Source: Paraspadella gotoi (lineage: Eukaryota > Animalia > Chaetognatha). From it: a stretch of DNA of 64,000 nucleotides. The notes under the pieces are model-generated. The model worked only from the letters and a program-made list of their open reading frames with translations. It was not told where the DNA came from and searched no databases. Below are positions 15,584 to 55,097 of the stretch, piece after piece. The stretch lies in the NCBI GenBank assembly GCA_051294375.1, contig CM119265.1, forward strand, positions 16,714,126 through 16,778,125, written 5' to 3'. Made by a program: the position numbers and the translations under genes. Each line of letters begins with the position of its first letter. The stretch's first letter is position 1.

Positions 15584-18500
15584 TCAACGAACAAAAACGT
15601 CGTCGTAGTGATCCAAAAGCAACAATGTGAAGTTATTAATATGTTGCATAGCCGATAAATTCGCCGGTGCGCCTGTCAAGAGTCAACTTATGGATAACAA
15701 AAAGTTAAAACCTTGGCACTTTCGTTTTCGTCGTGATTAAATGAGACAACATTCTAAAATATTACCCAATGACTGAAAATTATATATACATTATAAGAAT
15801 AGAATTTAAAAAGTAAACAAAACGAAAAAAATGTTAGCTATGTATTAAAAAAGATATGAAAATACTAAAAATCAAAATATATATAGAAAAAAAAAATAGT
15901 TTAAATATTTACTGATCAGAAATAGTCGAGACAACCTTACCTTGAGGCCATAGTAAATTGGGTCCAAAAACTATGGACAAGTTAGAAGACGTCATTTTGT
16001 TAATGTGTGACTGCGCGACAACTTCAACTAAAAACGTCATAATGAACTTGAGGACCTGGTAGTTCTCTTCTGGCAGACGAGTTGTGATTAGTTGGCTCGC
16101 GACCTTATATTTAAAGACGGATCTTTCATCAGTCGAGTAAAAACAGAATATTAACTTGCTCTTTACTTTGGTGCAAATATGATTGTAAACTCGGAATAAA
16201 ACAAATTAAACAAACCTTCACTCGGACGTCCCTGTCCATGTCCCAGAGGGAGAGGATGTGATTGTAAAGTTCGAAGGTGAGCAGGGGTTCAGGAAGTTCC
16301 CTCAAAAAGGTTTTCAGAATCACGGCGGGAATGTGCACGTCACCATAGGCAGTGAAGTCCACGGTCTCCCCTTGGTCGAAACGCGCTTGGACCTCTTTCA
16401 CGTCCTTGGCGTTTGCGGATCGTCTAACGAAAGAAAAATTGAAAATATGATGATGCTGTGGCGGTATATTCACACCACCTCACGTCCACCATCCGTCAGC
16501 CAAATCCATTGGCTCAGATGCTTAGTCTATTACAGTGGTATTTACAAAGGTCAACGTTTTGACCACAAATAAACTGGGGGAAACGAGCGGGGTCAGGTTG
16601 TTATGGTCAAGTGGTTTGACCGAGGTTGCATGTTCTTCATGTTCGTCCACACATCCCCCCACCAAGCCTTTGACCGGGTGGGGAGAAGGCTTGAGAGAAG
16701 TTATTGAGCTGCGTCGTTGTTTTCTTCGTCATCTTCCGGCGGTTGAAGCATTGTCGGAAGGACGTTAAACAGATCGGGAATGGATGATGATTGTCGACGA
16801 GCAACTTGGGGCATCATGGATGACGCGAGAGGCGCCGCTTCCGTTTCCGGAGGCGGTGCGACTTCGTCGTTGACGGTTGGAGCCGCTACTGAAGCGCGAC
16901 GCGGGCGACCTCGTGGGCGTGCCCGCGGTGGTTCAGGAGGAGCGGCTTCGTCGGTGACGGCAGGTTTAATCTTGTTTAATCTTTTACCTCCTAGGGTAAC
17001 CGCGCCAGTGACTGGAGGCGTCACTGAGGGTCGGAAGCCCCCAAAGCCAACAGTGAGATGCCCCATCCCAATGGGCATCACAGGCAACCCGGCTGTTGCC
17101 ATAAGTGGTGAGCCCTACTATCGAACACGCAACCTTTTCAGGGTACGCTACGACAAACGCCTATGCCCCTGGGGTACGCTACGCCTATGCCCCCACAACT
17201 CGCGCTCTCTCTCTCCCACTATGGTAGCAGTCTTGTCAGACACCTCTCAGGCTTGAGGAACCTGAGTGATGTCTTGGCCCGGGGATCCTGTGGCGGTATA
17301 TTCACACCACCTCACGTCCACCATCCGTCAGCCAAATCCATTGGCTCAGAGGGGGAACACACCATCCCAGGCGTAGTTTTCCTTCCACAGTCCTAACGAC
17401 TTCCCTCTGCGTTGGCAAAGCGAGACCGTCCTAGGGTAACCGCGCCAGTGACTGGAGGCGTCACTGAGGGTCGGAAGCCCCCAAAGCCAACAGTGAGATG
17501 CCCATCCCAATGGGCATCACAGGCAACCCGGCTGTTGCCCTAATGCGATCTTTCAATGAAAAATTTTAACGACATAAAACCTGAATATTCCCTCGCAGTC
17601 GAGAGCGTGGCACTGAAGGTAAGAGATGGTCTGCTGGACGACGGGTGGTACTGCTTCCCCCTGGTGCTCGCGCAAAAATTTGAGCGAGACGCGGAACTGC
17701 TGCGAGTCCAAGGGGGCGAGGAATGTCGCGGTCGTTCGAGCAGGGACCACTGAGGTAATAAAGTTGTACGTAGACGTAGAGTAAAACTCCCCCAAAATGA
17801 ATAACAGATATCCAACCTGGTCTGTATCGTTGTACTAATGCTCGGTCATAATCGAGAACCTCCTTGGGAATGACTAGTTGGTCGAAATGCAGATGCTCGT
17901 TCAATTCGTGAAGGTAATTCATGTAGATGATCTTAAATCATAACGTAAAAGAACTTTCAAAAAAGGCCAATGTAAAATCAAATATTTATTCTATTCAGTA
18001 TTCTGTGATTCCATTCTGATGACTAAGAAAATTTTTTAATCCCAAAAATTCCCTCAAACTAACTTTTCTCCCAAATTTGGCCGAAATGAGGGGACGGAAT
18101 AAGGTGAGCACAACTTTGACGAAATTAGAGGGATGCACGATCATGAGCTGCTTCAAGTTCTTTTTGTACTTTCGATCTGAAGCGTAAAGCAAAGCGAGAT
18201 ATCATCGTAAACATAAAGACACAGAACCCCTAGAATCAACAAAATCAACTCGCCTAGATCGTAATAAAGATCCTTGAGCAATGACAAAGGCGGCTTGTTA
18301 TGGCTCCTCATTCCGAAATGAAAGTAAACGATGATGTAATCGTTGATGACGTAATGGTCTAACGTGGCCTTCAAATAGCGGAGCAATTTCCGGTGGTCGA
18401 GAAGCTTGTTTGACGGCAACTTGCAGGCAGAGAAGGTGATGACCTTCCGCCCAAACTTGTCGTCGCCCGCGACCTCAAAGATGCTGAAGCGCGATATGTC

Positions 18501-28290: not shown

Positions 28291-28631
28291 TCGAAACACG
28301 ACAGTTTTCTGTAAAAGGAAATAATTAAATATATCTAAATATAACTAAATATAACTAATGATATCTAATGAATTTATGACAGGTTTCTGAAAGGAGAAAT
28401 CAAAAACAACAATGTTATTTGTACAGGTGATAAATTGTGAAAAACAATGGTTCAAAAAAACAAACTGATAATGCGAAATATTTTATATTTATATTATATC
28501 AAGCAGTTGTAAAAGTCAAATTCGCGGAAATGAAAAAGAAAGCAATTGTAAAAAAACCGTATTGGATTTTTAAAAAAATAGTATAAGTAATTTAGTATTA
28601 TGGTTGACTAAAATCCACCAACCGTTCACCA

Positions 28632-28820
28632 GCGGCCATTGGTGCCAGAGGCAAGTCATTCTCCTCCCAACCCAAAGGTGCAGGGTTTTAGCCCGGTGGT
28701 CGCCGAGCAGATAAGAGGGACAGGGCGCTTAACCCGCCTGTAACACGGTGTTACATTCTGATCTGAAGCTCAGGGACTGCTTATATTGAAGGGATCTGTC
28801 ACTAACACATAACAATAATT
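28632..28820 (+). mobile_element. Putative tRNA-derived SINE: degenerate tRNA-like head followed by a twister ribozyme
   Basis: Acceptor-like stem GCGGCCA(28632)/TGGTCGC(28697); A-box-like TGGTGCCAGAGG; Gly-like loop CTCCCAA; degenerate B box GGTTTTAGCCC; AC-rich tail near 28800-28818. No TSD identified. Confidence 0.5.
28706..28781 (+). ncRNA. Twister ribozyme, type P5 permutation (P2 slightly degenerate)
   Basis: P5 AGCAG(28706)/CTGCT(28777); GAGG-GA-CAG (28715-28723); T^AA 28730-32; CCC-GC; P3 TGTAACA/TGTTACA; P4 CTGA-T-CTG-AAGC-TCAG; T1 CTG/CAG is complementary. Confidence 0.75.
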
Positions 28821-30011
28821 ACTGTCTCTTCAGTATGAATAAAATCATAATATTCTGTACGAGCGGAATATTATAAGTTAAGTGTATATTTTGTATATTT
28901 TAGGAAAGATACTGATAAACTTTGATAGCAATTTATTGAGTTGGATTGTGGTCTCGGTTTATCAGAAGAAGAGCGTTTCCCCTTTGAAGAGCAATGCCAA
29001 TGGAAAGCCGACACTCATATTTTCAGCCCATCTATCGTTTATTACAAAATTAAAAATATTCTCAGTTTGACAATTGTTTTTCTCTCATTCTCGCGAGAAT
29101 ATCAAATTGTTGTTTTTTCTTTCTCTTTCCAGAAAAAAAGCCGCTACAAGAATTTTAGGTTTTACACTCCTTAGTCTATGAGGTTATTTTGCCCCATCGA
29201 TCTCGTCTCGTGTTTTGATAAATATGTTCTTTTGACTTTTGTTATTTGAAAAAAATGTTCTGTAGAGGGTGACATCGTTCAACTAAAACTACTTGGAATA
29301 AGAAAAGAAAGATATAAGAACACAGTTTTAAGCCAAGTTGTTAGTCTTACTCTTAGCCCTAATGGTAAAAAAAAATCATATATAACCTTGTTCCCCGACA
29401 AAAATTTATCCCTTTCTATTCAGCCTCTTAGTCTTAGATATTATGAATTCTCATTAATGATAGGGGTAGCCCCAATTAATGGGGTGAGTCAAAAATTTAG
29501 AATGAGTACATGCTCAAACGAAAATTTATACTTTCAATGAACAAAAAAAATTGTATATGGCTCTATACCCGAATAATTATTTTTTAAATATTTATTTATA
29601 GATAGGAAAGGCCAAATTTTTTTATGATAAATTTTTTTATGATAAGTGAGTCAAAAATAAGAAAGACTAAAAAATCGTCATCATCATCATCTTTCGATGA
29701 TTTTATCAGTTTTTTGTATTTTCATTTAGAAAACAGAGGAATTTTTAAAAGCTTTGATTATATCTCTCTTTTAACTTTTTATGCTCTATCAAAATCCGGC
29801 GAATCCGAAACTGTTCTTAAAATTAAAAAAAAAGATTTTGAAATTTTATGATATTATAAGGATATTACTATAAAAAAATTCAATTAATGATACGGTTATG
29901 CATTTTTTTTTTTGAAAAAAAAAGCTTAATTATTTTTTATTACATTGTTCATTTGCTTAATCTTTTCATCACTTCATTGAGTAAAGCCATCAGCTTATTA
30001 GCACTAGGTCG

Positions 30012-30540: not shown

Positions 30541-30857
30541 TTAGGTTAATTTTTTAAATTATAAATTAGGTTAAAGCTTTGGGCCAAGGATTAGGTTAAT
30601 GATTAAGGTTAGGGACTTGGTTTGTGATTAGGGTTAAGGTTTGCTTCAAAAATTTATAAATATATTAAGGATAAAAAAATTGGGGCAAAAACGAAAAACG
30701 AGTTAAAGGTTAATGTTAAAAATTAGAGATAAGGGTTTAGGGTTAAGTTTCAAGATTTGGTCAGGGTTAAAGATTAGGGTTAGGGTTTGCTTTATAAATT
30801 TATAAATATATTTATTTTAAATATTAAAGTTAAAAAAATTTGGGCAAAAACGAAAAA
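30541..30857 (+). repeat. Degenerate TTAGG/TTAGGG/TTAAGG-rich tract with internal direct repeat (similar tract at ~31540-31640)
   Basis: Scattered TTAGGTTA and TTAGGGTTAGGG units; AAATTTATAAATATATT..GGGCAAAAACGAAAA occurs twice. Confidence 0.6.
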
Positions 30858-33800: not shown

Positions 33801-34004
33801 TTCATGCCTGTTTCTCTACTTTTTTGTTTTGCTTATCCGCAATCGCAGAATGAAAGCTCATGAGGCCTTGGAGTTCATTGTTCGTTAACTATTCAAAATG
33901 CCATCATTTGAATTTTAAATAGAAATCGTAGAAGTAGAAACATCGAATTTGCATGAAATCGTCGGGGGCCTTGATCGGTTCCATTTTCGCCGGCCTCGCG
34001 TTTC

Positions 34005-34121
<117 letters not shown>

Positions 34122-35032
34122 ACTCATTTGTATTTTTTGTTGCATATCCTATCGTCGTCGTTATCCCATTCTTGGTCTTTTTTAGATTTTTTTAAAGGTT
34201 TTTTTATTTTTATGGGTCTTTATTATGCGTTTGCGCCACTGAGCCCGTAGTAATCAACCTGCCAGTGCCACTATCAGAAAGTTAAGCCTCGAAAGAAAAG
34301 AGCATAGCTCGACGCGTTGTCGTCTTCGCTGTTGTCGTCGTCGTCGTATTCGTCGTCGCTTGCCTTTTCTTCTCCGATTTAACTTTTTCTGTAAATTTAA
34401 CCTCAATATAAATATAAACGTAAGAGTTATTTAGCTATTTTTATTTGTTTTTGGACGCCTCGTTATCCGGACGCGATGTATGTAAAGTAAACGTAAACGC
34501 CCAAGTTGCATTTATTTTTTACGCTAAAATTGAAAGCATGACAAAGACAATATAGGTATTTGGAATGTGAGTGACGGATAAAAACAACTCATAAGTTCCT
34601 GGTTTGTTCTTTTGACTTGGTTAACTAAATTATTTGCCAATGGCGCAACGATGGGTTGAACCTTTTTTGTCTCCTAATTTAATTAAAATTCTGCGTCATC
34701 GTTATTCACGAATATTTTCGTTTCAAAACCCACGCTAAGTTTCCGATAAAACATTAACATAAATTGAGTTTCTGCTGAAAGGTTTATAATTGTTTAATTA
34801 TATTTATGACGGTATTATTGTCTAGTTTTTTTAGGCTTTCGTCTTTAATTTTTTTTTTTTCGCGGCAGTGGCGATCATTTCGCCACTTTCCTCCCATCCC
34901 CCCATCGATGCCACAAGAATCCGTCCGTAGCAGAATTCGTTCCTTTATCAAGATTTAAAATTCAGTCGGTAATTTGTATGAGAGCGTACGAGCCCTCCGT
35001 TCATTTCACATTCATTCCCGGTTGATGAAGAG

Positions 35033-35035
<3 letters not shown>

Positions 35036-35118
<83 letters not shown>
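35036..35118. repeat. (AG)n microsatellite
   Basis: Pure dinucleotide run. Confidence 0.98.
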
Positions 35119-35119
<1 letters not shown>

Positions 35120-35620
35120 GATAAAATAAAGTCCCAACTTTCTCTCCTAACCCCGAAAAAAGGCATTCGCGAGCCCCGAACCCCAACCCCTTCGATCGAA
35201 AACCGCCTCCATCCCGACAACCGCGTTTTATTCCACGCCGGCTCCGCGAAGAGCGAAACAATATTATGGTTAATCCCGCGTTAATTGGAAAAAAAGGCAC
35301 GTTGCTGCGTGCGAAGTCCGCAACCGGCTTAAGACCTGCCGCAGATTTTTCTCCTTTCTTTTTTTTTTAATGTCCAGGTGGATACCCACTGTACTCTTTT
35401 TGAAAATTATCTTCCCCCCGATTCTGTATCGCCATCTCTTTCTATACTATATGTCGTGCGAAGTTTTTCAAATCGCCCTGGGGCCGTTTTAACGACGCAC
35501 GTTTATAAATCCGTCTCTCTTTAATTTTAAACATTATTTTTGTAAAGAATTTTCCCATTTACAGCTTGGGAGAAAAATTTTTGGGAGAGATTTTTTGTTA
35601 TTTATAATTGACTACGACGT

Positions 35621-35662
35621 TGTTTAATGTTTAATGTTTAATGTTTAATGTTTAATGTTTAT
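35621..35662. repeat. (TGTTTAA)n short tandem repeat
   Basis: About six 7-bp units. Confidence 0.9.
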
Positions 35663-36208
35663 GTTACTGCGGTGAAAAGCCCGAAGATTTTAGTCCAGAG
35701 ATGCCGTCAGTGAGTTTCCATGAATGGGGAAAAGGACGACGTAAGTGGTAAGAGACTAAAAAGTAGATTTGGAAAAAGAGAAAGAAATCGTTGAACATTG
35801 GAACAGTAGGAACGGCGTACGAGGGTTTAGGGTGTAGATAGAAGAAATAGTAATAATTGGAAGAAAAAAGAGAAAAGCGTAGAAAGAGAAAAGCGAAAAA
35901 CGTATGACTGACAAGAAGAGACCGAAAAAGCGGACGCAAAAAAAAAGGTAATCGGCATCGCAGAGGAATAGAGGAAGAGACGGTAAAAATTGAAGCTGGA
36001 GGGAGAGGAGTGGACGAAGGAAGTGGTGGTGGAGTGGACTGCGGCGTGTCGGCGGCCGATAAGAGAAACGGCGAGAGAGCTCTCGTCGCGGAAAATCACG
36101 TGACTCGGTCTCCAGTGAATAAAGGGCTAAAGAAGAAAAGTTGGTGACCATGCGAACGAATGGCGCAGTAACGCTATGCTTCGCGCTTTGCGCATAGAGG
36201 GATTACAC

Positions 36209-36329
<121 letters not shown>

Positions 36330-37047
36330 GGGAGGGGTAGTATTCACGGGGGAAGTATCGAGAGAAGCCGTTGGCTACAACGGACGTCCTTCCGGTGGTC
36401 GTCGTCGTCGTCCTCGTCGTGGTCGTCGTCGTCGTGGGAATTCCTTGAGGGAGAAAAAGGGAATGAAGAAGAATCTGACGTCACGATTGCAGGTTGGCGA
36501 CTCTTGATGATGAATTAACGAGACCAGATGGACGTCGTCGAGAAGCGAAAGACGAGGAGCATAGAAAGCGAAAGAATAGAAATGAAAAGAAAAAAAAATT
36601 AAGCTGAATATAAAACTTTCATTTGGTTGAGCCTCAGGAGCGCATTGTGACTGTGTCTCGTCCATTGTTTTCGTCATACTTGATTTTAATTAAAAAGTAG
36701 TGAAAACTTTTTCGCCATCTTTAATTTTGTCTTCAATACGAAAACACTATGTCATTAATACCGTTCATAAATAAACACCCGCATGTCAGTACTATATTTA
36801 TTTTGCCATCTGCTTGAGTCGAACTACACTGTAATTTCTGATAATTTAATCGTATATCTACACTTAAGCAGGATTCTCTCTTTCGTTTGGCTTTGACGAA
36901 ATTTTTTTTATTGATTTATTGTAAATGTTTTTTGCTTATTGATTTATTGTAGATGTTTTTGATGAACGACGTCGCTTTGATCGTCCGTTTATATATTTTT
37001 TTATCGAATGAACTTTTCTCTGAGCTTTTTGCTCGTCGGTGTTGGCG

Positions 37048-39728
37048 TCAGCCGGCCACCGGTTCTTCTTCTTCCTCCGCCACCTTGTCTCCATCGTTGT
37101 CCGGGTTTTCACCGATTACTTCCTCTTCTAGCTCCATCTTTTGTTCCTCCCCTTCCTCTTCCTCCTCCTCCTGCATCCCTTCCTCCTCCTGCATCCCTTC
37201 CTCCTCCAGCATCCCTTCTTCCTTCTGTTCCTCATCTTCTTCCTCTTTCGCAGCCTCCTTCTCCGGTTCTCGCAGAGGATCGAATCCCTCGTCAAACCTC
37301 TTCCCCACGAGCCCTTCCTCCGAACAGACCGAGAAGTGGGGATCTTCCTCGAGGCTCCACTCCTGGAGAAGATCTGAATCCATGTGAAAGGGGTGGAGAG
37401 GAGCGCGTTATGGTGAACGTGGGATATGACGAGATGTAGGAAAAGCTAGACTTAGTTTGAGTATGAAAAGAGCACAGTACTTTGGATCTAATTAATTATT
37501 TCTTAACACTCACACAGTAAAAGTATTTAATTCGGCAACCCGTAAAGAATCTTAAATTGGAGCGAGATCAATTCAACGTTTCTTCAAAAAATCACGTCCC
37601 CGTAATCTTTAGTAGCTCCCTTTTATCATCATCCCTTAATAACTATACTTAACAACGGGACCCTGTCCCTCTCCCGGTCCGCGGACGAAACCATAGGGAA
37701 AAAAAAGTTTGCATTGAAAGCGGCGTTGAGTGACGGACTCGTCTCGATGGACGATATGGTAATGATTCCGCTGACAATTCTCATGTCCGCTTTTCGAAAG
37801 CAAACGAGTATGAAGAAGGGGAGATCCAATCGTGACGAATGAATTGCGGGACCGAGACGGATTGAATACGTATGTATTCATTTCGTATTTTGTATTTATT
37901 ATATTCATTTCATTTTAACATTTAATTTGGCTTTTTTTAAAAATATTTTGTATACTCAATCCTAATTTTCACTTTCATATCTGCCGCTTGGGTCTCAAAT
38001 ATTTCTTAGTTTTTGCAGTCATCAATGATTTTCCATTGATCGTAATCGCGATAACTTTTTTCTTCTATTCGTTTATTAAAATTAATTATTTATATGCTAT
38101 TCAGTACGATTTTATCCAGATAAAATGCCAATAATCAATTTAAATTAATTAAAGAGTAAGCAACGTTTCGACTGCCTGAAAGCCTCACCTTCCATTTCCA
38201 AAAGGGCGTTGTTCTTCCAATTGATTACTCTCATGGTGTCGCCTCGAAGATCGAATCTTGGCGCTTTTCCGGTTCTCTCCGTCATCGAAGCCATGAGTTT
38301 CGCGGCACTCAGGACGCCATATCTGACGCGCATTTGGGTGTTCATCTCAAAGCGTTTCGCTTCCGAAACCGTCGGTGGTGGCGGCGGCGTCGAGGAGGCG
38401 AGGCGTTGACGCAAAGCTTCGGACGAGCTCGATTCCATCGTTTCCATCCGTTCGCCGTCATCCTCTGCCGCGACCTTTGTGTCTTCATCCTTTGGATCCT
38501 CAGATCCTCGATCCTGCGCATCGTCCGCCGCATCGTGTGCCGCGTCGACCGGCGCGTCCTCCTCCGGCTGTTTTTCCACCGACTTTTCTAGCATCTCTTC
38601 CGTCTCTTTTTCCACCGACTCTTCTGGGTCATTTTCCGTCGTCCCTCGACAATCTTCTTCCTCTCTTTCGCACTTTTCTCTGGTGAGTATAAACCCCGCT
38701 CTCATCCTCTTCTCGGCGTCAAGGAGGTCGTCGGTCTTGAGACGGACGATGGCCCACCGGAAGTTGGCGTGGACGAGCCCAACCAAGTAACCGCATCGCG
38801 CGGCTATTCGTTCCAGCTTCTCTAGGAAGATGGAGGCCTCGGTGAGACAGTCCAAATCGATGAGGCAACCGGTGAGAAGATCGAGCACGTCGCACACGTC
38901 TCTCTCCTGGCCGTAGATGTAGAGAATCTCCTGACACTCGCGGAGCAGATCCGACGCTTCCACGTTTTTCCGCATGAACGCCAGCTGTCGGCCCAAATTC
39001 CACAGCACGCGCCCTTCGAGGGCATGGTTGTCGGTGCACCTTACCAACTCGTGCGCTCTTCGGAAGTGGCGGATCGCTTCGCCCGTGTTATTCTCCACCA
39101 GCCACACGGCCCCCATTTCGAGATGGAGTTCGCAAGCGCGACGGAGAGCCGCGCTTTGGTAAGTGACGGTACCGATCCTCCAATTCGAGTCCCGACTCTC
39201 CTCGACAAGCTGATTGGCCAGGCACAGCAAGTCAGCCAGGCCCTTGACGTCCCGGCTGTGGTCGGGATCATCATTGGACGCGAGCATCAATTTGTACAAA
39301 GCCTCCACCACCGGCTCAGTCAACTCTTCCGCCGAGATGTTATTCGTGGGATTTTTGCGCAACTCCAAAGCGGTCTTTAACGACAGTTCGAAGAAGTAGC
39401 GTGCCAACCAAAAGTCTTCCACCCGGTGAAAAAAGATGCCCAGCCTCGTCGTGGCTTGATACTGCGCCAACATCGCCATCTTTGTCCCAAGAATCAACAT
39501 GCCCTACGCGTGTGAAACGTGTGACCAAACATGATATGTAATATCATAATAGTTTTACATTTATTTTGACGAACCCTGCGATATTTAAAAGTAAAATGTC
39601 GCTTTTGTTCTGTTCTTTGAACTTTCTCGGCCGCCGACAATAAGTCTTTGATCATCATCAATTTAGAGGGATCGTCCTCTAGTAATGGCTGCGAGGGAAG
39701 AACTCATTTTTAGCGACTATTTTGAAAG

Positions 39729-39809
<81 letters not shown>

Positions 39810-40464
39810 GGAAACCTGCATTTTGAGCGCGGACTTTTCGTTTGCCGCCTTTCGAGCGAGGCATTGAAGAGCCATTAGGCAGTGAACTATCTCGAAGGAT
39901 CGATGGAAACCTTGGAGGATTCAAGAAAAAATTGAGCTGTGAGTGAGAGCAATTATAAATACATACAATTGTTAAAAAAAACATCATCTTTCGTCGTCAT
40001 AATCTTTCTCAATAGAGAATGACATCGACAACGTCTCACCCTCGATGAGAAGCTCCAAGCAGAACACGTGACCCTTCGAGTATTTGTAGCGCATGACTTC
40101 GAAAGGGGTCAGCCTGGGAAGTCGAACTTGAGTGCCGACCTACGGAGAAAAAAAATTCAAAAAGTGATTTAAATAATATTAATAATTTCTGCTTCCGAGA
40201 TATCTAGACTGGCCAGTGGCCACTCCTCGACCTCAAACCCCCAACCTCAGGTTTCGCTTTCCTTTGGTTTTTATTCGACGTTTGATTTTCGTTGTTCGGC
40301 GCGTCGCTCAAACCGACCGACTCTCCGCCTATTCTCGCTGCCCCGAACCGGCTCCTCCGAATATTCCTGTCCCCACTGCTCCACTCTTCCGCGTGACCCA
40401 GAGTGAAGAAACCGTCGAGCGGCGACTTCCCGATGCGCAGGGTGCGGCGCGGCGCCGGTAACAT
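37048..40464 (-). CDS. TTC29: Tetratricopeptide repeat protein 29-like (ciliary/flagellar TPR), ~6 exons, Glu-rich tail; start codon and last exon uncertain
   Basis: LTPFEVMRYKYSKGHVFCLELLIEG-FHRSFE, LEDDPSKL..AAEK, FFHRVEDFWLARYFFELSL and RVRYGVLSAAKLM..INWK match TTC29 blocks as I recall them. Phase-1 donor 38188 is compatible with the acceptor at 37374-75 leading into the acidic exon. Confidence 0.72.
39733..39805. repeat. (CT)n microsatellite in a TTC29 intron
   Basis: Pure run between inferred exons. Confidence 0.95.
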
Positions 40465-44000: not shown

Positions 44001-44399
44001 CGGCAACGACGAAGGACTAACTGGTCTCCGACATTATAAATAATGGAATTATTTTATCCTAGTTAATATTTTTTTATGAAAAGATTGAGCAAAGCGAATG
44101 TCTGTCTATCACTCGAGGATAAAGAAGTTACGTCACCCTAAGACGAAGATTTATTTCCCAGTATTTTCCTTATTTCTTTTCTGCTCCTGCGATTTCCCTA
44201 CCTCCAAGCCCTACTTTCCATCTTCTCCTGCGTTCCGTATCGCGATTTCAACTCTTTGATCCCCAAAAACTTCTTCCCCCCCTTGTTCCCCCCCCTGAGT
44301 CTTTTCCACTCCCCTCCCTTTCTTAACAAGAAAAAAAATGGTGATGATGATCGTGAAATTTTGAAAGAAACCAATCTTTCGCTTTGCCGCCTTTCTCGC

Positions 44400-44452
<53 letters not shown>

Positions 44453-44455
44453 TCT

Positions 44456-44493
<38 letters not shown>

Positions 44494-44843
44494 CCCTTTT
44501 AATTTTCAATTTTCTTATTTGGGGAAATTTTTGGAAGCAATGACTGAAACCAAATCGCGGATCATTAAACTAGAATTTATGAATTTTCGGGGGAAGGGCG
44601 GACGTCGGAACCCTCCCCCCTCAAACAATTCCCGTGTCCCTCCATTTTCCCCCCCATGTCCTCGCCTCTTCCGCCGACACGTCCCCCCCCGAACATTCCC
44701 CCATCGATTCGAAATTCCCGAGATTTTAACGAGACTTTCTAATCAAGTCGGGGCTAGGGGGGCGTTAGGGCGGACAAGGGCGGGCAATACAATTAAACTT
44801 GGTAAATTGAAACTCCAAAAATTTTTTTTTGGGGGGTTGACAC

Positions 44844-46595: not shown

Positions 46596-47933
46596 AAATC
46601 CGCTTTGGAACAAGAACAACTTTTTTTAGTAGCAGATGTTTTTTTTTTGAAGTACGCAGATGCGGAGCCGATACTAAGTGTTTAAACAAGAAAGTAGATC
46701 TCGTTTACATATCGTCATTTAATCCCTATTCAAACGTTATTCTTTTCTTTTTCCTTTGTCTTCCTCTCATTTGAATCATTCGATATTTTCGTTTCCACGT
46801 TGTATCAAATTGCTATCCTTTTGACAACAAAAAAAAAACTTGATACGTTTTATTTTGATATATGTTATTGTTTAAAGTTCGATTCTGCCACTTCCGAAAA
46901 AGTCTGAGAAATTCCTCAGGTGACCCAAATAACTGATTTTCTTTCTCGTCACGTGACTATTAGTAAAAAGAAATTTTAAACTTTGTATTTTTACGAAGGA
47001 AAAAAATAGGAAAGCCTTTGTCGCTACCGAAGTACAAACGTTTGATCATGAGAAGGAATATCTGATTAGACTTTGCGGATGCCGCAAATAACAGACTCAA
47101 TCGCAAATATCGTCAGAAAAGGGAAAAGGAAAGTGCGACTTCACACGCGGCCACCGCTCTGTTCATTTTAATTTGTTTCAGTCGTATTTTGTACATATTT
47201 TATACGATGAATACGAAAACACCTAACTTTTATAAATTTCTAACGCAACGATAAAGATTATTTTCTTTTTAAAAAAAAATAAGTGCTGTACCCAAAGTAT
47301 GTATGATGTTCAATAAAAGTAACGATTCGCATTAAGTAGTTTTAATAATTTTTCTCTGCATTTGTTGTCACATTAAAATTATACGGTGGCGAATTTTTTT
47401 TTTTTTTCTGATCGTAAAATATAATAACTGTTCGTTCGCTGGAATTTATTTTANNNNNNNNNNTCACCCCCTTTCCCCGTCTCCGTGGACGATGACATCC
47501 GCGTCGTCCTCGTCATTATTCCCGTCGCCGTGACAACGGAGCGATAAACACGAGCGCGCGTCGTTGTCGTCTCCACCATTTCCGGTTTTCATCGTCGTCG
47601 TCGTCGTCCGGCGTCGCCGGTCGGATCCATCCGCGCTTAAGGTCAGCTTTGGTCTCGTATCTATCGAGAACAGGTCATGAATGACTGATATGACAAATTC
47701 TGTTATTTGCCAGAGCTTTTGGATTTGGATGACGTCACCAGAGCGCGCGGGGCAGGGATGGTTTGAGGGAGGGGCAGGGATGTGCAGGGATGGTTTGAGG
47801 GAGAGAGGAAGGGTGGAAGAGGGAGAGACTGAGAGAGAGATAGAGTGGAAGAGCAGAGGAAGAGGTTTTTGACCCTTTCGCCTTGACCAACGGGAGGCCC
47901 GAAGTCCCCCATTCCCCAATTCCCCACGCGTGA

Positions 47934-47990
<57 letters not shown>

Positions 47991-48904
47991 TGATCCCTTT
48001 CACACATCAGCAATTCAATGAATAGATCCCTTTGCTTTGTTTATCGGTCGCTGTTATCTTCACACCACATTCATTTGACCGTTGGAAGGACGAGGACGAT
48101 GACGGCGACGACGATGACGATGACGACGACGCATTTTGAAAAGCGTCCCTTTCATCCAGGATGATCGGTGACGCCATCTATTGCGAGTTCCTCGCGGTGA
48201 ACCGATTTCCTCCCCGTTTTTTTCTTTCTTGTAAAGAGCGAAAAACTTTATCCCGGCTTTTGTGACATGAGCGAGATTGAAGAGTTATGATAGAGATGAT
48301 AAAAAACGAAAGTAGAAAAACTAAAGAGTATAAAAAAAGTAGATATCAAAAAAAGTACAAATAAAAAAACTTTTTAAATCATCTTTGAAAAACGCCAGAC
48401 GCCCAATCGATGACTTTGAAAAAAAATACTAAATTTTGAAACACTACTTCCCCAAATCTCCGAGTTTCGATTGATTGAATTAGAGGACAAAACGTGAGTT
48501 TGTGATTTTAAAGTGATTTTCCGATTCGCACTTTTCGAATTCGTTTCACGTGACTTCATTTATTTTTTTATTTTTAGGTGGAATTTGATTTGGAAGAAAG
48601 ATTGGATGGAAGGGAGGTGGGTGAGGTGGGTGTTGGTTGATGTCAGGAACCATATCGCGGGATAATTCGAAAATCGGGTCAGGTCGTCCCGACTCTCCCT
48701 CGAAAACTGAATTTGGCTTCCGTTAATTTATGAAAATAAAAATTAAAATATTGATTTCTCGTTCCGAATGGAAAAAAAAATGGTAAACAAAAAATATTAG
48801 ATTTCTAGCTGAAAAGGATTCTGATTGGCTGCTGCAAAGGGAAGGAAAAGAAGGTCGATCTTTTTCGTTTCCTCATTATTATTTTTTCTTATTGTCTCAT
48901 CTCT

Positions 48905-48938
<34 letters not shown>

Positions 48939-48944
48939 CTCTCT

Positions 48945-49001
<57 letters not shown>

Positions 49002-49309
49002 ACACGTTTAACCGCGTGAAATATTCGAATTGTATGAGTTAAACGACTCAGTCGTATCATGAAAGGTTAAATCTTATTTCAAGCTTCCATGATTCATTGA
49101 TTCAAGACTGCAATTATCATTTTCAAGACGCCGCAACTTTCTCAACAGGCGAAACAAATACTAAGCAGATAACCTCAACGCCGGAGCGAAAGACGGCGTT
49201 GACGCCGGCGCTGATCACGAAAACAATACTCCGAGGGCGCAGACGTGTAACGACGAGGATCACGACAAAGTCTACGACGACGACGATGGCGACGACGTCG
49301 TGAACGATA

Positions 49310-49792
49310 CTTTGCCGACGATGGCGCCATTATTGCTGATATAACGCAGACCTTTGCGACCCAGAGTCGCGGGTTGCTCTCTCGCGCCTATTCACCTCAT
49401 TGGTCGAGCCCATAGTTCGGATTTTCTCGTGGCTTCTACGTGGCTGCAGTAATATTACCTTATCGCTTTATTATTTTCATATCATAGTAAATCTTTACTA
49501 ACGTTAGTAACTAGTTACATTTCTCAATTCGCGTCCAAGCCTTCGAGCTTTCTCCACCTTTGCCGCTCAATCCCCCCTCGCGTCACCAACGATGGGCGAA
49601 TAAGTCACTCGACGTCTACGTGAGGCCGAAAGAAATGACACGTGACTTATCGAGGTGGGCGTGGCTGCGTGTGAAAGGAAGAGAGCAGCGAGTTGTTGAC
49701 AGGTTAGGTTAAAGCGAACCCTGTCGAATGTTAACTATACATAACGTGAAAGAAAACCGAGACGAGAGACGAGACGAGACGGAGAGAAGATG

Positions 49793-49824
<32 letters not shown>

Positions 49825-51944
49825 AGAGAGAGAGAAGAGAGAGAGAGAGAGAGAAGAGAAGAGGAGAATTGATAATAGATAAAATTCGGGGCATCATCGC
49901 CCCTTCCATCCCGTCGAGAGGACAAGCGTCGAAGTCCGGGAGAGATAATAGACGAGAGAGATGGAAGTAGAGAGAGAGATGAGAGAGCACGCATGAGAGA
50001 CCGAGAGAGAGAGAGAGAGAGAAAGATTGATAAAGAATAAATTCGGGCATCATCGCCCCTTCCATCCCTCGAGAGGTCAGCGTCGTTAAGTCTCGGGAGA
50101 GAGAGGAACCGGGTCAACCGGGTCGGAGGTCGATTCCGTCTGAGTCCTCACCCACGTGACGAGGATGAGGAAGAGGAGGAAAAATATTGGTAAGTTTGCC
50201 GTTTCTATGAAAACCAACTATGGCTGCGGTGGCATGTTTTCACTTGGTCAGTCTAAGTTGCTGATTTTTTCTAAAAGTTTTAAATGGAGTCTAGTAAAAT
50301 TAAAGCAGTACAATGATAATTATCGTTGAAATACAATGTAAGAAAAGAAGAAACAACTATACTGAAAAAAAAACTATACTACAAAGAAAGAGAGAAATAA
50401 AGAAAGAGAGAGACAGAGAGAATGATCGCGACTTCTAAGAAGGGGGCGCTGCCCTGTCAAAGGTCCTTTTCTTATAGAGGAAACAGAAGAACGTCGCATA
50501 AGCTCTTCGGACTCGAACGAAAGAGAGCGAGGGGGAGAGAGAGAGAGAAAGAAAAGAAGAGAGGGTCAACGCCGCATAAGCTTTAACTCTGAGACGTGAG
50601 GCGAATGAGAGTCAAATGTCGACACCACCGAAAAAAAATGACGAAGAAAAAGCACTTTCGAGCATATATATGATTTATAAATATACATGTACGGTTCAAC
50701 TAATTTGTCAAAATTTTTAAAGTTCAAAATATTACGCAACAAAATCATCTCGTTTAACTTAACTCTATACATAAAAAAAATATGTTTTTCGCTCAAAATC
50801 TTGAAAAAAAAAAGGAAAAGGAAAGAAAAACGATTAATAAATTCATAAAAAATATATTCTGGCGGAGAAACGAGCGGCCGCGACCTCGCTTCGTTTATTT
50901 TGGTGACTCTTAAACCTAAAAGCTCTTCGCGAACTCCGCCGAGCCGGTCTCGCCGCCAATGTCGGCCAGGCCAGGCCGGTCCGGCGCCGCGGCGGTCATA
51001 CGTGACATCGAGACGCGAATAAGTGACCCGCTGCGACGACGGCAACGATGACGACGACGACGTCGGCCTTCTCAATCGCAAATCCGGTCAAGGCGAATTT
51101 GTGGAAAATCATAAGAGGTCAAAAAATAGCGTTAGTTATCATGGATCCATCTCGTTTGAAGATTTCATTTTTTTTCTCTTTTCCATAATAACGGGCTCGG
51201 GTTACAACGTTAAACGAAGTATAAACTGATTTAGAATTAAGTTTACACCTCTACTATAATAGTACTAAAAATTTACTCTTTTCTTATAAGTTATAAGGAA
51301 ATTAACATGATAGCAATCCTTTATCCTCTTAAAACCCGAAAATAGCCCTACTTCTGTCAAAGACCGAGGATTACATTGACGATCCATCACTCACTCACCG
51401 AGTCTTCTCAACTTTAAAAAAAACCGGTTTGGCATTTTCATGTTTATGTATCTCTCTCTGTCTCTGTCTCTCTCTCTCGCTCTCCCTATGACCCGAATCG
51501 TCATGTCCTGGAACAATAATTGTCTGTCTTCGTCTCCTTATTTTCTATACGTACCTAGTTCCTCGCTGTGTTTGACTTTAAATTTATCGATGCAGAACGA
51601 ATCTTTTTATTTGTACAAGGCACAGAAAAGATTTTTTAAGAAATATAAGATATGGGGATATGAAAGTTTAACTAATTATTCAGATATGTATTTTTGTAAA
51701 GTTCGCACTTGTAACGACGTTCGCGTTAAAACTAAGTGCGCGCTTCAAAGAAGGGAGGTAAATATGATCATGAGTTTTTGTCACTTCCAGGGACAAAGGG
51801 ATTTCGCTATTGGCGGTTGCCATTTCTCGTCAATAACAAGGAAAACCTTCGTGATCAACTAGGATTTCGTNNNNNNNNNNNNNNNNNNNNNNNNNTATTG
51901 AATGGATCATTTTGCCTATAAAGCGAAGAGAGAGCGAGAGAGAG

Positions 51945-52037
<93 letters not shown>

Positions 52038-52919
52038 AGAGAGAGCAGTCTCTCAGTTATGCATAGGATTACTTGAACCGTTAAATCCGACGCGTCGAGC
52101 TGACACATTTGGTGAACCACCAAAATTAAGCTTTGCTTGTCGGGTCAAGGCCATGAAGCTATATTTAGAACAGAAAGAAAAAGAGAAACGAGAGAGAGAG
52201 AGAGAGGAGAGAGAGAGAGTAGATTGAGAGTAGAAGAGGATATTCGTGTGATGTTCGACCGTGTACGCTTGAACTCGATTCAAGATGGCGACGAACGTAG
52301 TAATCACGAAGGCTTTCGCCGGTGTCCGTTTCGTGATCTGGTCAATAATAAAACAGCATTAGAGTAAGAGACGACGTCGTCGCGCTTACGATTTGAATGA
52401 TCCGATAAGGAATTTCTTTTTAAACTGTCTGAACATCATAACTGAAAAATTATTATCCCTAAGCTTTGTTGGGCTGAAATAAATATAAAGAAACACTCTT
52501 GATGTGTTCTCTCTCCACGAGAGATCGTTGTAGTAAAAGCGAGAAGATTGTACGCCTCTGAAGGTGAACGAAACAGAGTATTCTAATGTCAAAAACCGAT
52601 TATAACTTTATGACATCAATCCAGAAATGTGAGAACTGTAACTTATTTTGTAAAATATGTAGGATAAGTACGGAGCTATTTGATGTAATAGATATAAAAA
52701 TGTTTCTCTAATTTAAAATAAGTGTTTTTTAATTACGAAAAAAGTAATACTCTTTCGGTCGCGCTGAATCCTATAACATTTAAATAACCAGATATCTGTC
52801 AAACGCGTGCAATATGTAAATGAGTATTTTGGTCACTTTGTTTGTCTTTTTTCTATTTAAATCACTCTCGACTGGCGAGTGAGTAAGAGAAGAGAGTGAG
52901 AGAGAGAGAGAGAGCGAGA

Positions 52920-52955
<36 letters not shown>

Positions 52956-53244
52956 AGAGAGAATTAGAGCAGAAAGAAGTCAGCAACGATCCATAGCCGG
53001 GTTGTCAAGGGTTAATCCGCCTCGCCGAACGCCCCCGCAAATAGATGTGATAAAAGAATAAAGACGAAGTGCCGTCATGAATATATCTCGAGCGAAAATT
53101 TCCGCGCCGCGCTAATTTCGGCCGTTATTTCCCGGCTTCTCGCTCCTTCCTAAGAAAGTTTAAGATGTGTGGCGTCTCGATGACATCCGGGTGAGGGACA
53201 GGGAACGAATGACATCCGGGTGCTACAGAGAGAGAGAGAGAGAA

Positions 53245-53306
<62 letters not shown>

Positions 53307-54380
53307 AGGATGAGAGGTAGAGAGAGAGAAGAGAGATCCGTGATTTAAATGAACTGGGCTACGGGAAAGCGAGCGAAATAAAAATATATTTCACAATTAA
53401 GAGAGAAATCAATATCATCGCAGAGTTCGAAGCGGGGAAGTCTCTCTCCTCATCCTCTCCATCTTCCTCTCTCTCTCTCTCTCTCGTCTCTCTTGTCGCT
53501 CTCTCATCGAATCGAAAAAAGCGTACGCGTCGTCGGTTGAGCGAAAACAAACTTCCGCCGTTTTCTCGTTTAACTTTCCAGTTCGCATGCGCAGATGGAT
53601 ATATAAAAAGAATCATAGACGCAGAAGTTTTTTGCTTTTTGTTTGAGATTTTTTTCATATTTGAATGAGACAACAGCGAGAGAAGCGAATCATTTTTCTC
53701 TCGAGACGAAGACATTTTTTTGATTCGTCGTTAAAATCGATAAAAGTCGTCGGTTGAAAAACCGTCAGAGTTTTTAACGCGTCTGTTCTTATCGAAAGCC
53801 ACATCGCGTCGCGGATATATTTCAACGAAAAAATTGTATATATTATGAAAAATCTCACGGAAAGACCCGCTCCATGGGAAACAAATGCTGCCACTAAGCG
53901 AGTACCTTCTAATTCGGAGCGTTAATTGCAGAACAGTCTCTCGATTGTCCGTGCTCTTTCGCGTGTGTGGTAATTAAATTAGTTTCAGCGCCGATTCCGA
54001 TTAACTGATATGAAAGTAGGTTCCAGTCTATCGTCCTTTAGTATTCACGGTTAACGCGGCAAGGTTCAAGTTATATCTCAAGGATGGAAAAGGGTCAACT
54101 GAATCGCTTCTAATTCAATATATTGGCAAAAATTTATTTCGTTCTGGAAGATTTTGAATCTCAGCTTTCGACTTTTTTTCCTTCTTTTTCTTCACGGCGA
54201 GTTTCTATTCTAATTTTTCTATTTTTTTCCTCTTTCTTTCTCAATTTTCTATTTTCTTGGAGCTTTCTCCTTTCATTTTCTCTTTTCACTCATGCTTCCT
54301 CTTTTTTTCCCTTATCCTTCAGGTCAAAACGTCTGGCGACCGTTCTTATTTTTTTCCCCCTCTTTTATTTATTCGTTCTC

Positions 54381-54428
<48 letters not shown>

Positions 54429-54480
54429 CGCCTTCCTCTCTCTCTCTTCTCTCTCTCTGCGATATGCCGCTCTCTCATCT

Positions 54481-54539
<59 letters not shown>

Positions 54540-55050: not shown

Positions 55051-55061
55051 CTCTCTCTCTG

Positions 55062-55097
<36 letters not shown>

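What the first reader, a model, noticed from the sequence alone, without database searches (positions are those of the whole stretch)
28632..28820. tRNA-like head fused directly to a second, sequence-unrelated type-P5 twister (ribozyme-bearing SINE)
Seen: 2 nt after the tRNA-like acceptor stem begins AGCAG-ATAA-GAGG-GA-CAG-GGCGCT-T^AA-CCC-GC-C-[TGTAACA/TGTTACA]-TT-CTGA-T-CTG-AAGC-TCAG-GGA-CTGCT. The helices differ in sequence from the LTR twister yet still pair (T1 CTG/CAG vs CGG/CCG; P4 closing pair A-U vs G-C). P2 looks like CCTC/GAGG with one base lost. Established: hammerhead-bearing SINE-like repeats exist in schistosomes and HDV-like ribozymes flank some phage tRNAs. Inference: a Pol III-driven element whose twister cuts ~26 nt after the tRNA moiety, separating head from body or generating unit-length RNAs from tandem copies.
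Basis: partly seen in the sequence, partly recalled or inferred. Interest (0 to 1): 0.84.

Follow-up and report, generated by a model that had tools for sequence, protein, structure and literature searches.

The report
Twister-like motif in abundant SINE-like repeat
This stretch is one copy of a short repeat found in thousands of pieces of this animal's genome, and its middle 77 bases have the layout of a twister self-cutting RNA that would likely cut the repeat's transcript in two, although cutting is untested and one helix is a base short.

Summary
P3, P4, P5 and both pseudoknots (T1, T2) pair, and the core letters of a twister are in place. A descriptor of that core finds only two sites in the window, this one and the "LTR twister" at 17420-17481. 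Shuffles give 0.0125 per window.

The stretch is not single copy. Contigs of four public runs show that 28599-28832 is a very abundant dispersed repeat. Its majority form improves the B box, lengthens P5 and P4, and keeps T1 complementary.

Against a working twister:
- No Rfam twister model scores it, even at E<=10 on 91 bases.
- There is no P1.
- The 5' strand of P2 has 3 letters instead of 4, in the family as well as in this copy.
- A competing hairpin is predicted.
- No covariation or RNA evidence could be obtained.
- ARAGORN and Rfam call no tRNA, and a conserved 33-base leader precedes the tRNA-like part.

Verdict: a real SINE-like family whose central domain is probably a permuted, P1-less twister. 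Its activity and purpose are unproven. If active, it would be a new variant of a known kind.

The parts
28599..28832 (+). One copy of a very abundant dispersed repeat of about 234 bp (SINE-like). It differs from the family majority at 14 of 234 places.
   Evidence: summed contig depth rises from tens in the flanks to 10^5-10^6 inside. Contigs run on into unlike, A+T-rich sequence before 28596-28599 and behind 28832-28836; 14 of 234 differences.
28599..28631 (+). Conserved leader before the tRNA-like part. In the majority form, 28621-28628 is predicted to pair with 28787-28794.
   Evidence: depth, edge of likeness at 28599; 8-bp helix in the majority-form MFE; this is a prediction and could be chance.
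28632..28705 (+). tRNA-like head. It has a 7-bp acceptor-like stem (28632-38 with 28697-703), an anticodon-arm-like hairpin (28647-52 with 28662-67, 6 bp in the majority form) and a T-arm-like hairpin. The B-box-like motif is at 28684-28694.
   Evidence: B box 7/9 here and 8/9 in the majority; 117 of 5000 shuffles reach 8/9. Not called by ARAGORN or Rfam. This copy has TTTT at 28686; the majority does not.
28706..28782 (+). Twister-like domain in a type-P5 arrangement without P1.
28706..28710 (+). P5 5' strand, pairing with 28777-28781. It reaches 7 bp (28706-12 with 28775-81) in the majority form.
28715..28723 (+). P2 3' strand (28715-18), the GA with the predicted catalytic G28719, and the T1 3' strand (28721-23).
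   Evidence: The layout P2'(4)-G-A-T1'(3) is taken from PMC8501958 Table 1. G45 of the rice twister and G48 of env22 are the catalytic G (PMC5408937).
28730..28731 (+). Predicted cut between U28730 and A28731. A 6-base link (28724-29) stands where P1 would be.
   Evidence: Inference from the twister layout; untested.
28733..28737 (+). P2 5' strand (only 3 letters, 28733-35) followed by the GC of T2 (28736-37).
   Evidence: One search shows no indel here at 2% or more in the family.
28739..28755 (+). P3 hairpin, 7 bp with a 3-base loop. The loop base 28746 is C or T in the family.
   Evidence: (I6).
28758..28773 (+). P4 (4 bp; 5 bp in the majority) with loop L4 = U, T1 (28763-65), AAGC.
28783..28832 (+). 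Tail of the repeat. It has no A-run or simple repeat at its end and holds most of the frequent family variants (28791, 28798, 28802, 28807, 28809).
28577..28588 (.). 12-base direct repeat. Its partner is at 28867-28878 (11 of 12 alike). It is a possible target-site duplication.
   Evidence: D1; one contig in each of the 4 runs joins 28576 to 28880.

Best explanation
Bases 28599-28832 are one decayed copy of a very abundant SINE-like repeat, and its central 77 bases (28706-28782) are probably a circularly permuted (type-P5), P1-less twister ribozyme that would cut the element's RNA between U28730 and A28731.

Shown:
- the high copy number and the repeat's ends
- the exact layout and pairing of P3, P4, P5, T1 and T2
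- the presence of the U-A-A cut loop, the G-A with the catalytic G, the GC of T2 and the U-NNN-AAGC loop
- the persistence of all of these in the family majority

Inferred, by analogy with tRNA-related SINEs and the hammerhead-bearing Sm-alpha SINE:
- The element is transcribed from the B-box-bearing head, or as part of longer transcripts.
- The twister domain folds as a four-way junction (P5, P2, P3, P4) locked by the two loop contacts.
- Cutting leaves a 5' piece (leader, tRNA-like head and 26 bases) ending in a 2',3'-cyclic phosphate.
- It leaves a 3' piece (rest of the ribozyme and tail) starting with a 5'-OH.

Full-length copies carry both halves, so new copies must come from uncut RNA. 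The cut therefore most likely limits or processes transcripts and does not define the ends of the element.
For: - Descriptor hits: 2 in the window against 0.0125 expected. P3 and P5, which the descriptor does not ask for, are both in place (chance about 0.0024).
- The second site (17420-17481) has the same architecture and the same unpaired core letters, but different helices. P5 is 6 bp against 5, P3 is 6 bp against 7, P4 is GGG/CCC against CUGA/UCAG, and the middle pair of T1 is flipped. Overall likeness of the two is weak (65 of 2000 shuffles reach the score).
- The majority form lengthens P5 to 7 bp and P4 to 5 bp and keeps T1 complementary as CCG/CGG. This copy has CUG/CAG, a change on both sides of one pair.
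- Frequent family variants inside the domain fall on neutral places: 28706 (A-U to G-U in P5) and 28746 (P3 loop). The 50-base tail has five or six such sites.
- P1 is dispensable in the 'mini-twister' (PMC5408937).
- T1 varies in natural insect twisters. It is CUC/GAG in the Nasonia and Camponotus entries and CCC/GGG in Halyomorpha and Diaphorina (PMC8501958 supplement).
- Repeat status.
Against: - No Rfam twister model reports the site at any threshold tried.
- The P2 5' strand has 3 letters in the whole family. P2 is 4 bp in every natural example I saw (7 S. mansoni rows, 4 insect entries), and a change in its length is said to risk the active site (PMC5408937).
- In the majority form the nested MFE (-29.1 kcal/mol) prefers a hairpin 28718-24 with 28733-38 that locks up T1' and P2. 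The nested part of the twister fold scores -15.3, pseudoknots not counted.
- All T1 variants are CpG transitions. The shares of the paired sites 28721 C>T and 28765 G>A do not match in 3 of 4 runs, so the family gives no covariation proof. This copy's double change has roughly a 1-in-7 chance under CpG decay (my estimate).
- The copies' ends (28599, 28832) are not at the cut site, and cutting would part the promoter head from the tail, which gives no clear benefit to the element.
- No tRNA call for the head.
Confidence: 0.5

Rival explanations
1. A twister-derived relic. The central domain descends from a twister but no longer cuts, or cuts very poorly, because P2 lost a base and P1 is gone. 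It persists as a structured central domain of the SINE, for example for RNA stability or for binding the partner reverse transcriptase.
For: The 3-letter P2 strand is the family state. There is no P1. A strong competing hairpin is predicted in the majority form. Full-length copies must come from uncut RNA, because the ends at 28599 and 28832 are not at 28730/31. No Rfam hit.
Against: Every known catalytic and pseudoknot letter is kept in the majority of thousands of copies. The unrelated site at 17420-17481 also has an imperfect P2 (C.A plus 3 bp) with an otherwise intact core, which hints that this form is tolerated. The mini-twister works without P1.
Confidence: 0.25
2. A generic cloverleaf or a decayed second tRNA-like unit. 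The 77 bases form a four-way junction of tRNA size, and the likeness to a twister is coincidental. The junction has a 7-bp closing stem, a 17-base middle hairpin and a 5-bp arm abutting the closing stem, whose loop resembles a T loop.
For: The majority-form MFE is a cloverleaf of 77 bases. The P4 loop region matches the B-box consensus at 6 of 9 letters at 28760, and an A-box-like motif (8 of 9) lies at 28689. No twister model hit.
Against: No tRNA call by ARAGORN or Rfam either. The middle hairpin has a 3-base loop, unlike an anticodon arm. There is no likeness between head and domain (518 of 2000 shuffles score as well). The twister-specific parts (GA plus the T1 complement, UAA-N3-GC, the T2 complement) are not expected from tRNA descent. 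The descriptor expectation is 0.0125 per window. The site at 17420-17481 shares the core without being tRNA-like.
Confidence: 0.13
3. Chance resemblance in an unrelated repeat body.
For: The scan reads very many windows. The descriptor was written after the fact. The nested fold has z = 0.20.
Against: Two full matches in one window against about 3e-5 expected for each. The layout is kept in the family majority.
Confidence: 0.05
4. The carrier is not a Pol III SINE but another kind of short non-autonomous element, such as a retrozyme-like unit or a solo terminal repeat. The tRNA-like part would then serve another role, for instance as a processing signal for RNase P or RNase Z. This rival concerns the class of the carrier and can hold together with any reading of the twister.
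For: A conserved 33-base leader lies before the tRNA-like part. The canonical A box is poor. There is no A-rich or simple-repeat tail. A few head-to-tail joints exist.
Against: There are no terminal inverted or long terminal repeats in or around the copy. Most copies are dispersed monomers with random A+T-rich flanks. The B box is 8/9 in the majority. A possible 12-base target duplication fits reverse-transcriptase-mediated insertion.
Confidence: 0.2

Closest known systems
Twister ribozyme, type P5 permutation (Roth et al. 2014, recalled and not held; reviewed in PMC5408937)
   Same: The order of parts is that of a twister opened in P5. The shared features are the U-A-A cut loop, G-A with the catalytic G after a 4-letter P2 strand, a 3-bp T1 between the P4 loop and the loop by the cut site, a 2-bp T2 (GC with GC), an 8-base P4 loop U-NNN-AAGC, and an optional P3 hairpin.
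   Different: No P1 hairpin; a 6-base link stands in its place. P2 has 3 letters on one strand. T1 is CCG/CGG (CUG/CAG in this copy) instead of CCC/GGG or CUC/GAG. No Rfam twister model scores it. Activity is untested.
Mini-twister (P1-less env22 construct; Kosutic et al. 2015, as described in PMC5408937)
   Same: A twister core without P1. The review's legend to its Figure 5 says that P1 is not required for efficient cleavage.
   Different: That is an engineered two-strand RNA with free ends where P1 was. Here the two ends are joined by a 6-base loop in a natural repeat. PMC8501958 calls cleavage without P1 inefficient.
Sm-alpha and related hammerhead-bearing SINE-like elements of schistosomes (described in PMC6765202)
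   Same: A short, abundant, apparently Pol III-type element with a self-cleaving ribozyme inside the element, so that cutting parts the promoter end from the rest.
   Different: The ribozyme class differs (hammerhead against twister-like). Sm-alpha is said to occur often in tandem, whereas here tandem joints are rare.
T-variant twisters at the 5' end of Perere-3, and truncated twisters at the 5' end of RTE retrotransposons (PMC8501958; PMC7761336)
   Same: Twister-class motifs with a weak or absent P1, carried by non-LTR retroelements of animals.
   Different: Those are type-P1 forms at the very 5' end, so the cut defines the element's 5' end and the ribozyme stays on the element. Here the motif is permuted and internal, about 130 bases from the 5' end, and the copies' ends do not match the cut.
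tRNA-related SINEs with a conserved central domain (SINEBase classes; listings and abstracts only)
   Same: A three-part build: tRNA-like head with a B box, a structured central domain, then a tail. High copy number and dispersed copies.
   Different: The head is not recognised as a tRNA by ARAGORN or Rfam. A 33-base leader precedes it. No partner LINE or tail homology could be tested.

Membership tests
Twister ribozyme | Cut loop N^A-A on the 5' strand of L1 | tested here: met
   T28730, A28731, A28732; also in the family majority (no variant at 2% or more).
Twister ribozyme | G-A after the P2 3' strand (catalytic G), followed by the 3-letter T1 strand | tested here: met
   G28719, A28720, then 28721-23. 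Layout from PMC8501958 Table 1 and PMC5408937.
Twister ribozyme | P4 hairpin with 8-base loop U-NNN-AAGC | tested here: met
   28758-61 with 28770-73; loop 28762-69. P4 is 5 bp in the majority form.
Twister ribozyme | Pseudoknot T1: 3 pairs between L4 and L1 | tested here: met
   28721-23 with 28763-65: C-G, A-U, G-C here; C-G, G-C, G-C in the majority.
Twister ribozyme | Pseudoknot T2: GC after P2 with GC of L4 | tested here: met
   28736-37 with 28768-69.
Twister ribozyme | P2 of four Watson-Crick pairs | tested here: not met
   Only 3 letters (28733-35) face 4 (28715-18). No indel at 2% or more in the family. The best that can form is 3 pairs, either with A28716 bulged out or in a shifted register that uses up the catalytic G.
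Twister ribozyme | P1 helix next to the cut site | tested here: not met
   The 6 bases 28724-29 cannot form a hairpin. P1 is reported as dispensable or as needed for efficient cutting.
Twister ribozyme | Score at or above the Rfam gathering threshold (twister-P1, -P3 or -P5 models) | tested here: not met
   No hit at gathering, nor at E<=10 on 64 kb, 401 bases or 91 bases. These models do not score pseudoknots.
Twister ribozyme | Covariation that supports the helices and pseudoknots | tested here: inconclusive
   Copy sequences could not be fetched; only variant tables were available. The two sites in the window differ in all helices yet pair. Within the family the T1 variants are CpG transitions with unmatched shares.
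Twister ribozyme | Site-specific self-cleavage | not testable with these tools
   Needs an in vitro transcript or end-specific RNA sequencing.
tRNA-related SINE | Many dispersed copies with defined ends | tested here: met
   5412, 9842, 1683 and 701 contigs laid in four runs. Edges at 28596-99 and 28832-36 with unlike A+T-rich flanks.
tRNA-related SINE | Internal Pol III promoter: A box and B box | tested here: inconclusive
   B box 8/9 at 28684 in the majority (117 of 5000 shuffles do as well). The A box at the canonical place is poor; the best A-box-like match (8/9) lies at 28689, after the B box.
tRNA-related SINE | Head recognisable as tRNA-derived | tested here: not met
   ARAGORN finds none in this copy or the majority form. 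No Rfam tRNA hit at E<=10.
tRNA-related SINE | Target-site duplication | tested here: inconclusive
   12-base repeats at 28577-88 and 28867-78 (11 of 12 alike) coincide with a contig that joins 28576 to 28880 in all 4 runs. They enclose 10 and 34 extra bases beside the repeat.
tRNA-related SINE | Tail shared with a partner LINE | not tested
   No genome of the organism is held.

The most novel reading that the evidence does not exclude
A tRNA-related SINE family uses an active, permuted, P1-less mini-twister as its central domain. That would be the first twister-bearing SINE. The twister part carries about 10^4 times the contig depth of the single-copy flanks, so this animal genome could be one of the richest in twister motifs known. 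The motif would have a 3-pair P2 and a CCG/CGG T1, both outside the current models.
Probability: 0.35. Interest if true: 0.8.

Novelty: new variant of a known kind. Interest (0 to 1): 0.6.

Why it matters
Twisters are widespread in animal genomes, but a biological role has been worked out in only a few cases, namely 5'-end processing of Perere-3 and RTE elements. A twister in the middle of a SINE, permuted so that the cut splits the element, would be a second and different use. It would parallel the hammerhead in schistosome Sm-alpha elements.

It would also show that the current covariance models miss a whole class of natural twisters: those without P1, with a short P2 and with other T1 letters. 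These may number in the thousands in one genome. It would supply natural data on how much of P1 and P2 the fold can lose.

If the motif is inactive, the finding is only a well-characterised new SINE-like family.

Tried and rejected
- **Own genome:** none is held, so copies could not be aligned.
- **Pattern scans for copies elsewhere:**
  - Viral contigs gave 7 loci, all unrelated chance matches.
  - Metagenome contigs with a twister-core pattern gave 0.
  - Genome contigs gave 1 locus in a Myxococcales MAG whose P4 loop is too short for a twister; I took it for a chance match.
Across all 128 loci held, no likeness to the element ran beyond 34 bases.
- **Within the window:** BLAST found no second copy of the repeat.
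- **RNA evidence:** no RNA holder is listed. Run X9 is only guessed to be RNA and is held as contigs, so nothing can be said on expression, strand or RNA ends.
- **Earlier findings of the scan:** nothing for this genome or sequence.
- **Organism:** not identified. The atlas search with the Syf1 exon gave only 'Eukaryota'. Gene content shows an animal; 'insect' is my guess only.
- **Other twister registers rejected by eye:**
  - No P2'-GA-T1' segment lies downstream of P4, so there is no type-P1 form.
  - The hairpin 28721-24 with 33-36 cannot be P1, because no N^AA follows it.
- **Papers:**
  - Roth et al. 2014 is not held.
  - One paper search was badly designed and useless.
  - Searches listed no paper describing a twister inside a SINE. 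They cover only the held library.

Full report
**Setting**

The window is from an animal. It holds a U5 snRNA gene (55306-55421, minus strand, 93 bits). It also holds long exons of Syf1/XAB2, THOC1, a POU-homeobox gene, IntS14, DAP3, a galactosyltransferase and an OATP transporter. No whole genome is held for it. I did not identify the organism.

**The observation**

In this copy the helices pair as follows, all with standard pairs:
- P5: 28706-10 with 28777-81
- P3: 28739-45 with 28749-55
- P4: 28758-61 with 28770-73
- T1: 28721-23 with 28763-65
- T2: 28736-37 with 28768-69

I took the canonical order of parts from Table 1 of PMC8501958 and from passages of the review PMC5408937. That order is P1, UAA, P2 (4), GC, P3, P4, loop U-NNN-AAGC, P4', (A/G)UAAA, P2' (4), G-A, T1' (3), P1'. 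The G of G-A is the catalytic guanine (G45 in rice, G48 in env22), and the A after the cut is the general acid.

Opened in P5, that order is what is found here:
- P5a, then AUAA
- GAGG (P2'), then G28719-A28720
- CAG (T1')
- a 6-base link
- U28730^A28731-A28732
- CCC (P2), then GC, C and P3
- P4 with loop U-CUG-AAGC
- P5b

There are two departures. No P1 exists, and the 5' strand of P2 has 3 letters against 4.

**Is it more than chance?**

I wrote a descriptor of the core only. It asks for P2'(4)-GA-complement of T1, a 3-40 base link, TAA, P2 of 3-4 letters with most of them pairing, GC, up to about 60 bases, a P4 of 3 pairs, and T-NNN-AAGC.

- It finds two sites in the 64 kb on both strands: 28715-28772 and 17420-17481.
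- In 400 dinucleotide-preserving shuffles the mean was 0.0125 hits. Five shuffles had one hit and none had two.
- The descriptor was written after seeing the sites, so this figure is generous to the hypothesis. Its fixed letters, however, are those of the published consensus.
- P3 and P5 are not in the descriptor. A hairpin of 6 or more pairs in the P3 place has a chance of 0.020, and 5 pairs in the P5 place 0.118. Together that is 0.0024. Both sites have both helices.

It has the same unpaired letters and the same build, including the lack of P1 (an 8-base link) and an imperfect P2 (C.A plus three pairs). All its helices differ in sequence, and the middle pair of T1 is flipped. The overall likeness of the two domains is weak (65 of 2000 shuffles reach the score).

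**What the standard models say**

- Rfam gives no twister hit at the gathering score.
- It gives none at E<=10 on the whole window, on 28500-28900 or on 28700-28790.
- The other site gets only a partial twister-P1 match of 15.2 bits against a gathering score of 67.2.
- These models do not score pseudoknots. By my inference, they would also penalise the missing P1 and the short P2.
- The nested fold is not unusually stable (z = 0.20).

Membership by covariance model is therefore not met.

**The stretch is a very abundant repeat**

One search found eight holders of the stretch among the nine runs listed, all of one coded organism. I laid contigs of three DNA runs and one run guessed to be RNA on 28450-29000, at 80% likeness or more.

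- 5412, 9842, 1683 and 701 contigs lie on it. Most are 90-95% alike.
- Summed contig depth rises from tens in the flanks to 10^5-10^6 between 28599 and 28832. The tool warns that this is not a copy number.
- Contigs run on into unlike, A+T-rich sequence before 28596-28599 (in X1: 14, 21 and 65 contigs) and behind 28832-28836 (in X1: 142, 29 and 36).

Head-to-tail joints (28832 back to 28598) occur in 1 contig of X1 and 2 of X3, so tandem copies are rare. The window holds no second copy.

**The family majority**

This copy differs from the majority at 14 of 234 places: 28629, 28647, 28662, 28680, 28682, 28688, 28705, 28711, 28722, 28756, 28757, 28764, 28791 and 28794. I applied these states inside scripts only, with these results:

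- The anticodon-arm-like hairpin of the head becomes a perfect 6 bp. The head folds at -35.4 against -28.3 kcal/mol.
- The B-box match at 28684 rises from 7/9 to 8/9. Of 5000 shuffles, 117 do as well.
- The internal TTTT of this copy disappears.
- P5 grows to 7 bp and P4 to 5 bp.
- T1 is CCG with CGG.

This copy is therefore a decayed member. Its T1 carries a change on both sides of one pair (G28722 to A, C28764 to U).

That double change is weak evidence. Both are CpG transitions. Six of the 13 CpG sites of the majority form are altered in this copy, four of them by such transitions. From that I estimate roughly a 1-in-7 chance of the matching second change.

**Variation in the family**

At 2% or more, no insertion or deletion is seen in 28690-28800, so the 3-letter P2 strand is the family state. 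Variable places in the domain are:
- 28706 (A or G; keeps the pair as G-U)
- 28721 (T1')
- 28745 (last P3 pair)
- 28746 and 28747 (P3 loop; 28746 is C or T at 20-50%)
- 28756
- 28765 (T1)

Sites 28721 and 28765 pair with each other in T1. Their variant shares match only in X3 (8.4% and 7.5%) and not in X1, X5 or X9 (1.3/6.5, 0.3/2.8 and 0.3/3.1%). So there is no proof of covariation. The 50-base tail carries five or six frequent variants, against two in the 77-base domain, both at neutral places. That is a modest sign that source copies keep the domain intact.

**Points against a working twister**

- The review states that P2 has four pairs in all structures, and that adding or removing a pair may disturb the active site. 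All 7 S. mansoni rows and the 4 insect entries I saw have four.
- In the majority form the nested MFE (-29.1 kcal/mol) uses a hairpin 28718-24 with 28733-38 that ties up T1' and P2. The nested part of the twister fold scores -15.3, with the pseudoknots not counted.
- On P1 the literature is split. The review's legend to its Figure 5 says P1 is not required for efficient cleavage. PMC8501958 calls cleavage without P1 inefficient.
- In favour: T1 letters do vary in nature. They are CUC/GAG in the Nasonia and Camponotus entries and CCC/GGG in Halyomorpha and Diaphorina.

**The head and the class of the element**

The head has a 7-bp acceptor-like stem, two hairpins and a good B box. ARAGORN finds no tRNA in this copy or in the majority form, and Rfam reports none. 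The canonical A-box place matches poorly. The best A-box-like motif (8/9) lies at 28689, after the B box.

A conserved 33-base leader precedes the head. In the majority form its bases 28621-28 are predicted to pair with 28787-94, closing head and twister domain together. An 8-bp match in 234 bases could be chance.

There are no terminal inverted or long terminal repeats and no A-rich tail.

One contig in each of the four runs joins 28576 to 28880. Those points coincide with a 12-base direct repeat (28577-88 and 28867-78, 11 of 12 alike). This fits an insertion polymorphism with a target-site duplication. But the repeats enclose 10 and 34 bases beyond the family unit, and the letters at the joint are not shown.

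I call the element SINE-like. Pol III transcription is an inference.

**How it most likely works**

*Shown:* a high-copy unit made of leader, tRNA-like head, twister-like domain and tail.

*Inferred:*
- The RNA is made from the head's internal promoter or within longer transcripts.
- The domain folds as a four-way junction locked by T1 and T2.
- It cuts at U28730^A28731, 26 bases after the acceptor-like stem.
- This gives a head piece with a cyclic phosphate end and a tail piece with a 5'-OH.

The copies carry both halves and their ends are not at the cut. New copies must therefore come from uncut RNA, so the cut cannot define the element's ends as it does for Perere-3. Since tandem copies are rare, it is also unlikely to produce unit-length circles. 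The closest functional parallel is the hammerhead inside Sm-alpha, where cutting also parts the promoter from the rest (PMC6765202). What the cut is for remains open.

**Comparison and novelty**

- Twisters are known in insects.
- They are known at the 5' ends of Perere-3 and RTE elements (PMC8501958; PMC7761336).
- Only circular permutations P1, P3 and P5 are known (PMC10085705).
- My searches of the held library listed no paper on a twister inside a SINE.
- Roth et al. 2014 could not be read. Its supplement may list such sites.

If the motif is active, this is a new variant of a known kind.

**Verdict**

- The repeat family is real (confidence about 0.97).
- The domain is a genuine twister-type fold (about 0.6).
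- It is catalytically active in source copies (about 0.4).
- Interest: 0.6.

Noticed in passing
window 16989-17100 and 17429-17539; descriptor hit 17420-17481: Two 100%-identical copies of a GC-rich unit with a twister-like core. Only the second copy has the upstream P5a/P2'/GA/T1' parts; its predicted cut is at T17437^A17438. The first copy has a P1-like and P2-like completion downstream (near 17100-17120) but no T1 partner. Rfam gives only a partial twister-P1 match of 15.2 bits. A further repeat pair lies at 16452-16518 and 17284-17350.
   Followed up: partly
window 28576-28880: A contig in each of four runs joins 28576 to 28880, at about half the local depth in X1. It also carries a 1-base deletion at 28550. 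This is an alternative allele without the repeat, bounded by 12-base direct repeats at 28577-88 and 28867-78.
   Followed up: partly
window 28732 (run X9, guessed RNA): Two contigs match the repeat up to 28732 and then continue in unrelated sequence, within 2 bases of the predicted cut site. There are too few contigs, and the kind of run is too uncertain, to interpret this.
   Followed up: no
window 28715-28723 and 28822-28830: The last bases of the repeat are complementary (9 pairs, some G-U) to the P2'/GA/T1' segment of the twister-like domain. The pairing is in this copy's MFE fold. It could compete with the ribozyme fold in full-length RNA.
   Followed up: no
window 55306-55421 (-): U5 spliceosomal RNA gene, 93.1 bits, full length.
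   Followed up: no
window 53642-53832 vs 59722-59907; 55538-55753 vs 61937-62152; 52239-52299 vs 55094-55154: Diverged direct repeats (84-95% alike), about 6.1-6.4 kb apart for the first two pairs and 2.9 kb for the third. This may be a segmental duplication around the U5 gene region.
   Followed up: no
window 30588-30821: Degenerate TTAGG/TTAGGG-like telomere-type repeats at an internal place.
   Followed up: no
window 33950-36400, 39700-39810, 44360-44500, 47750-56000: Many long (GA)n/(CT)n microsatellites. They also give spurious weak matches to plant miRNA models in Rfam.
   Followed up: no
L008 401-447 (-): A Myxococcales MAG contig matches the twister-core search pattern, but its P4 loop is too short for a twister. 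I took it for a chance match.
   Followed up: partly
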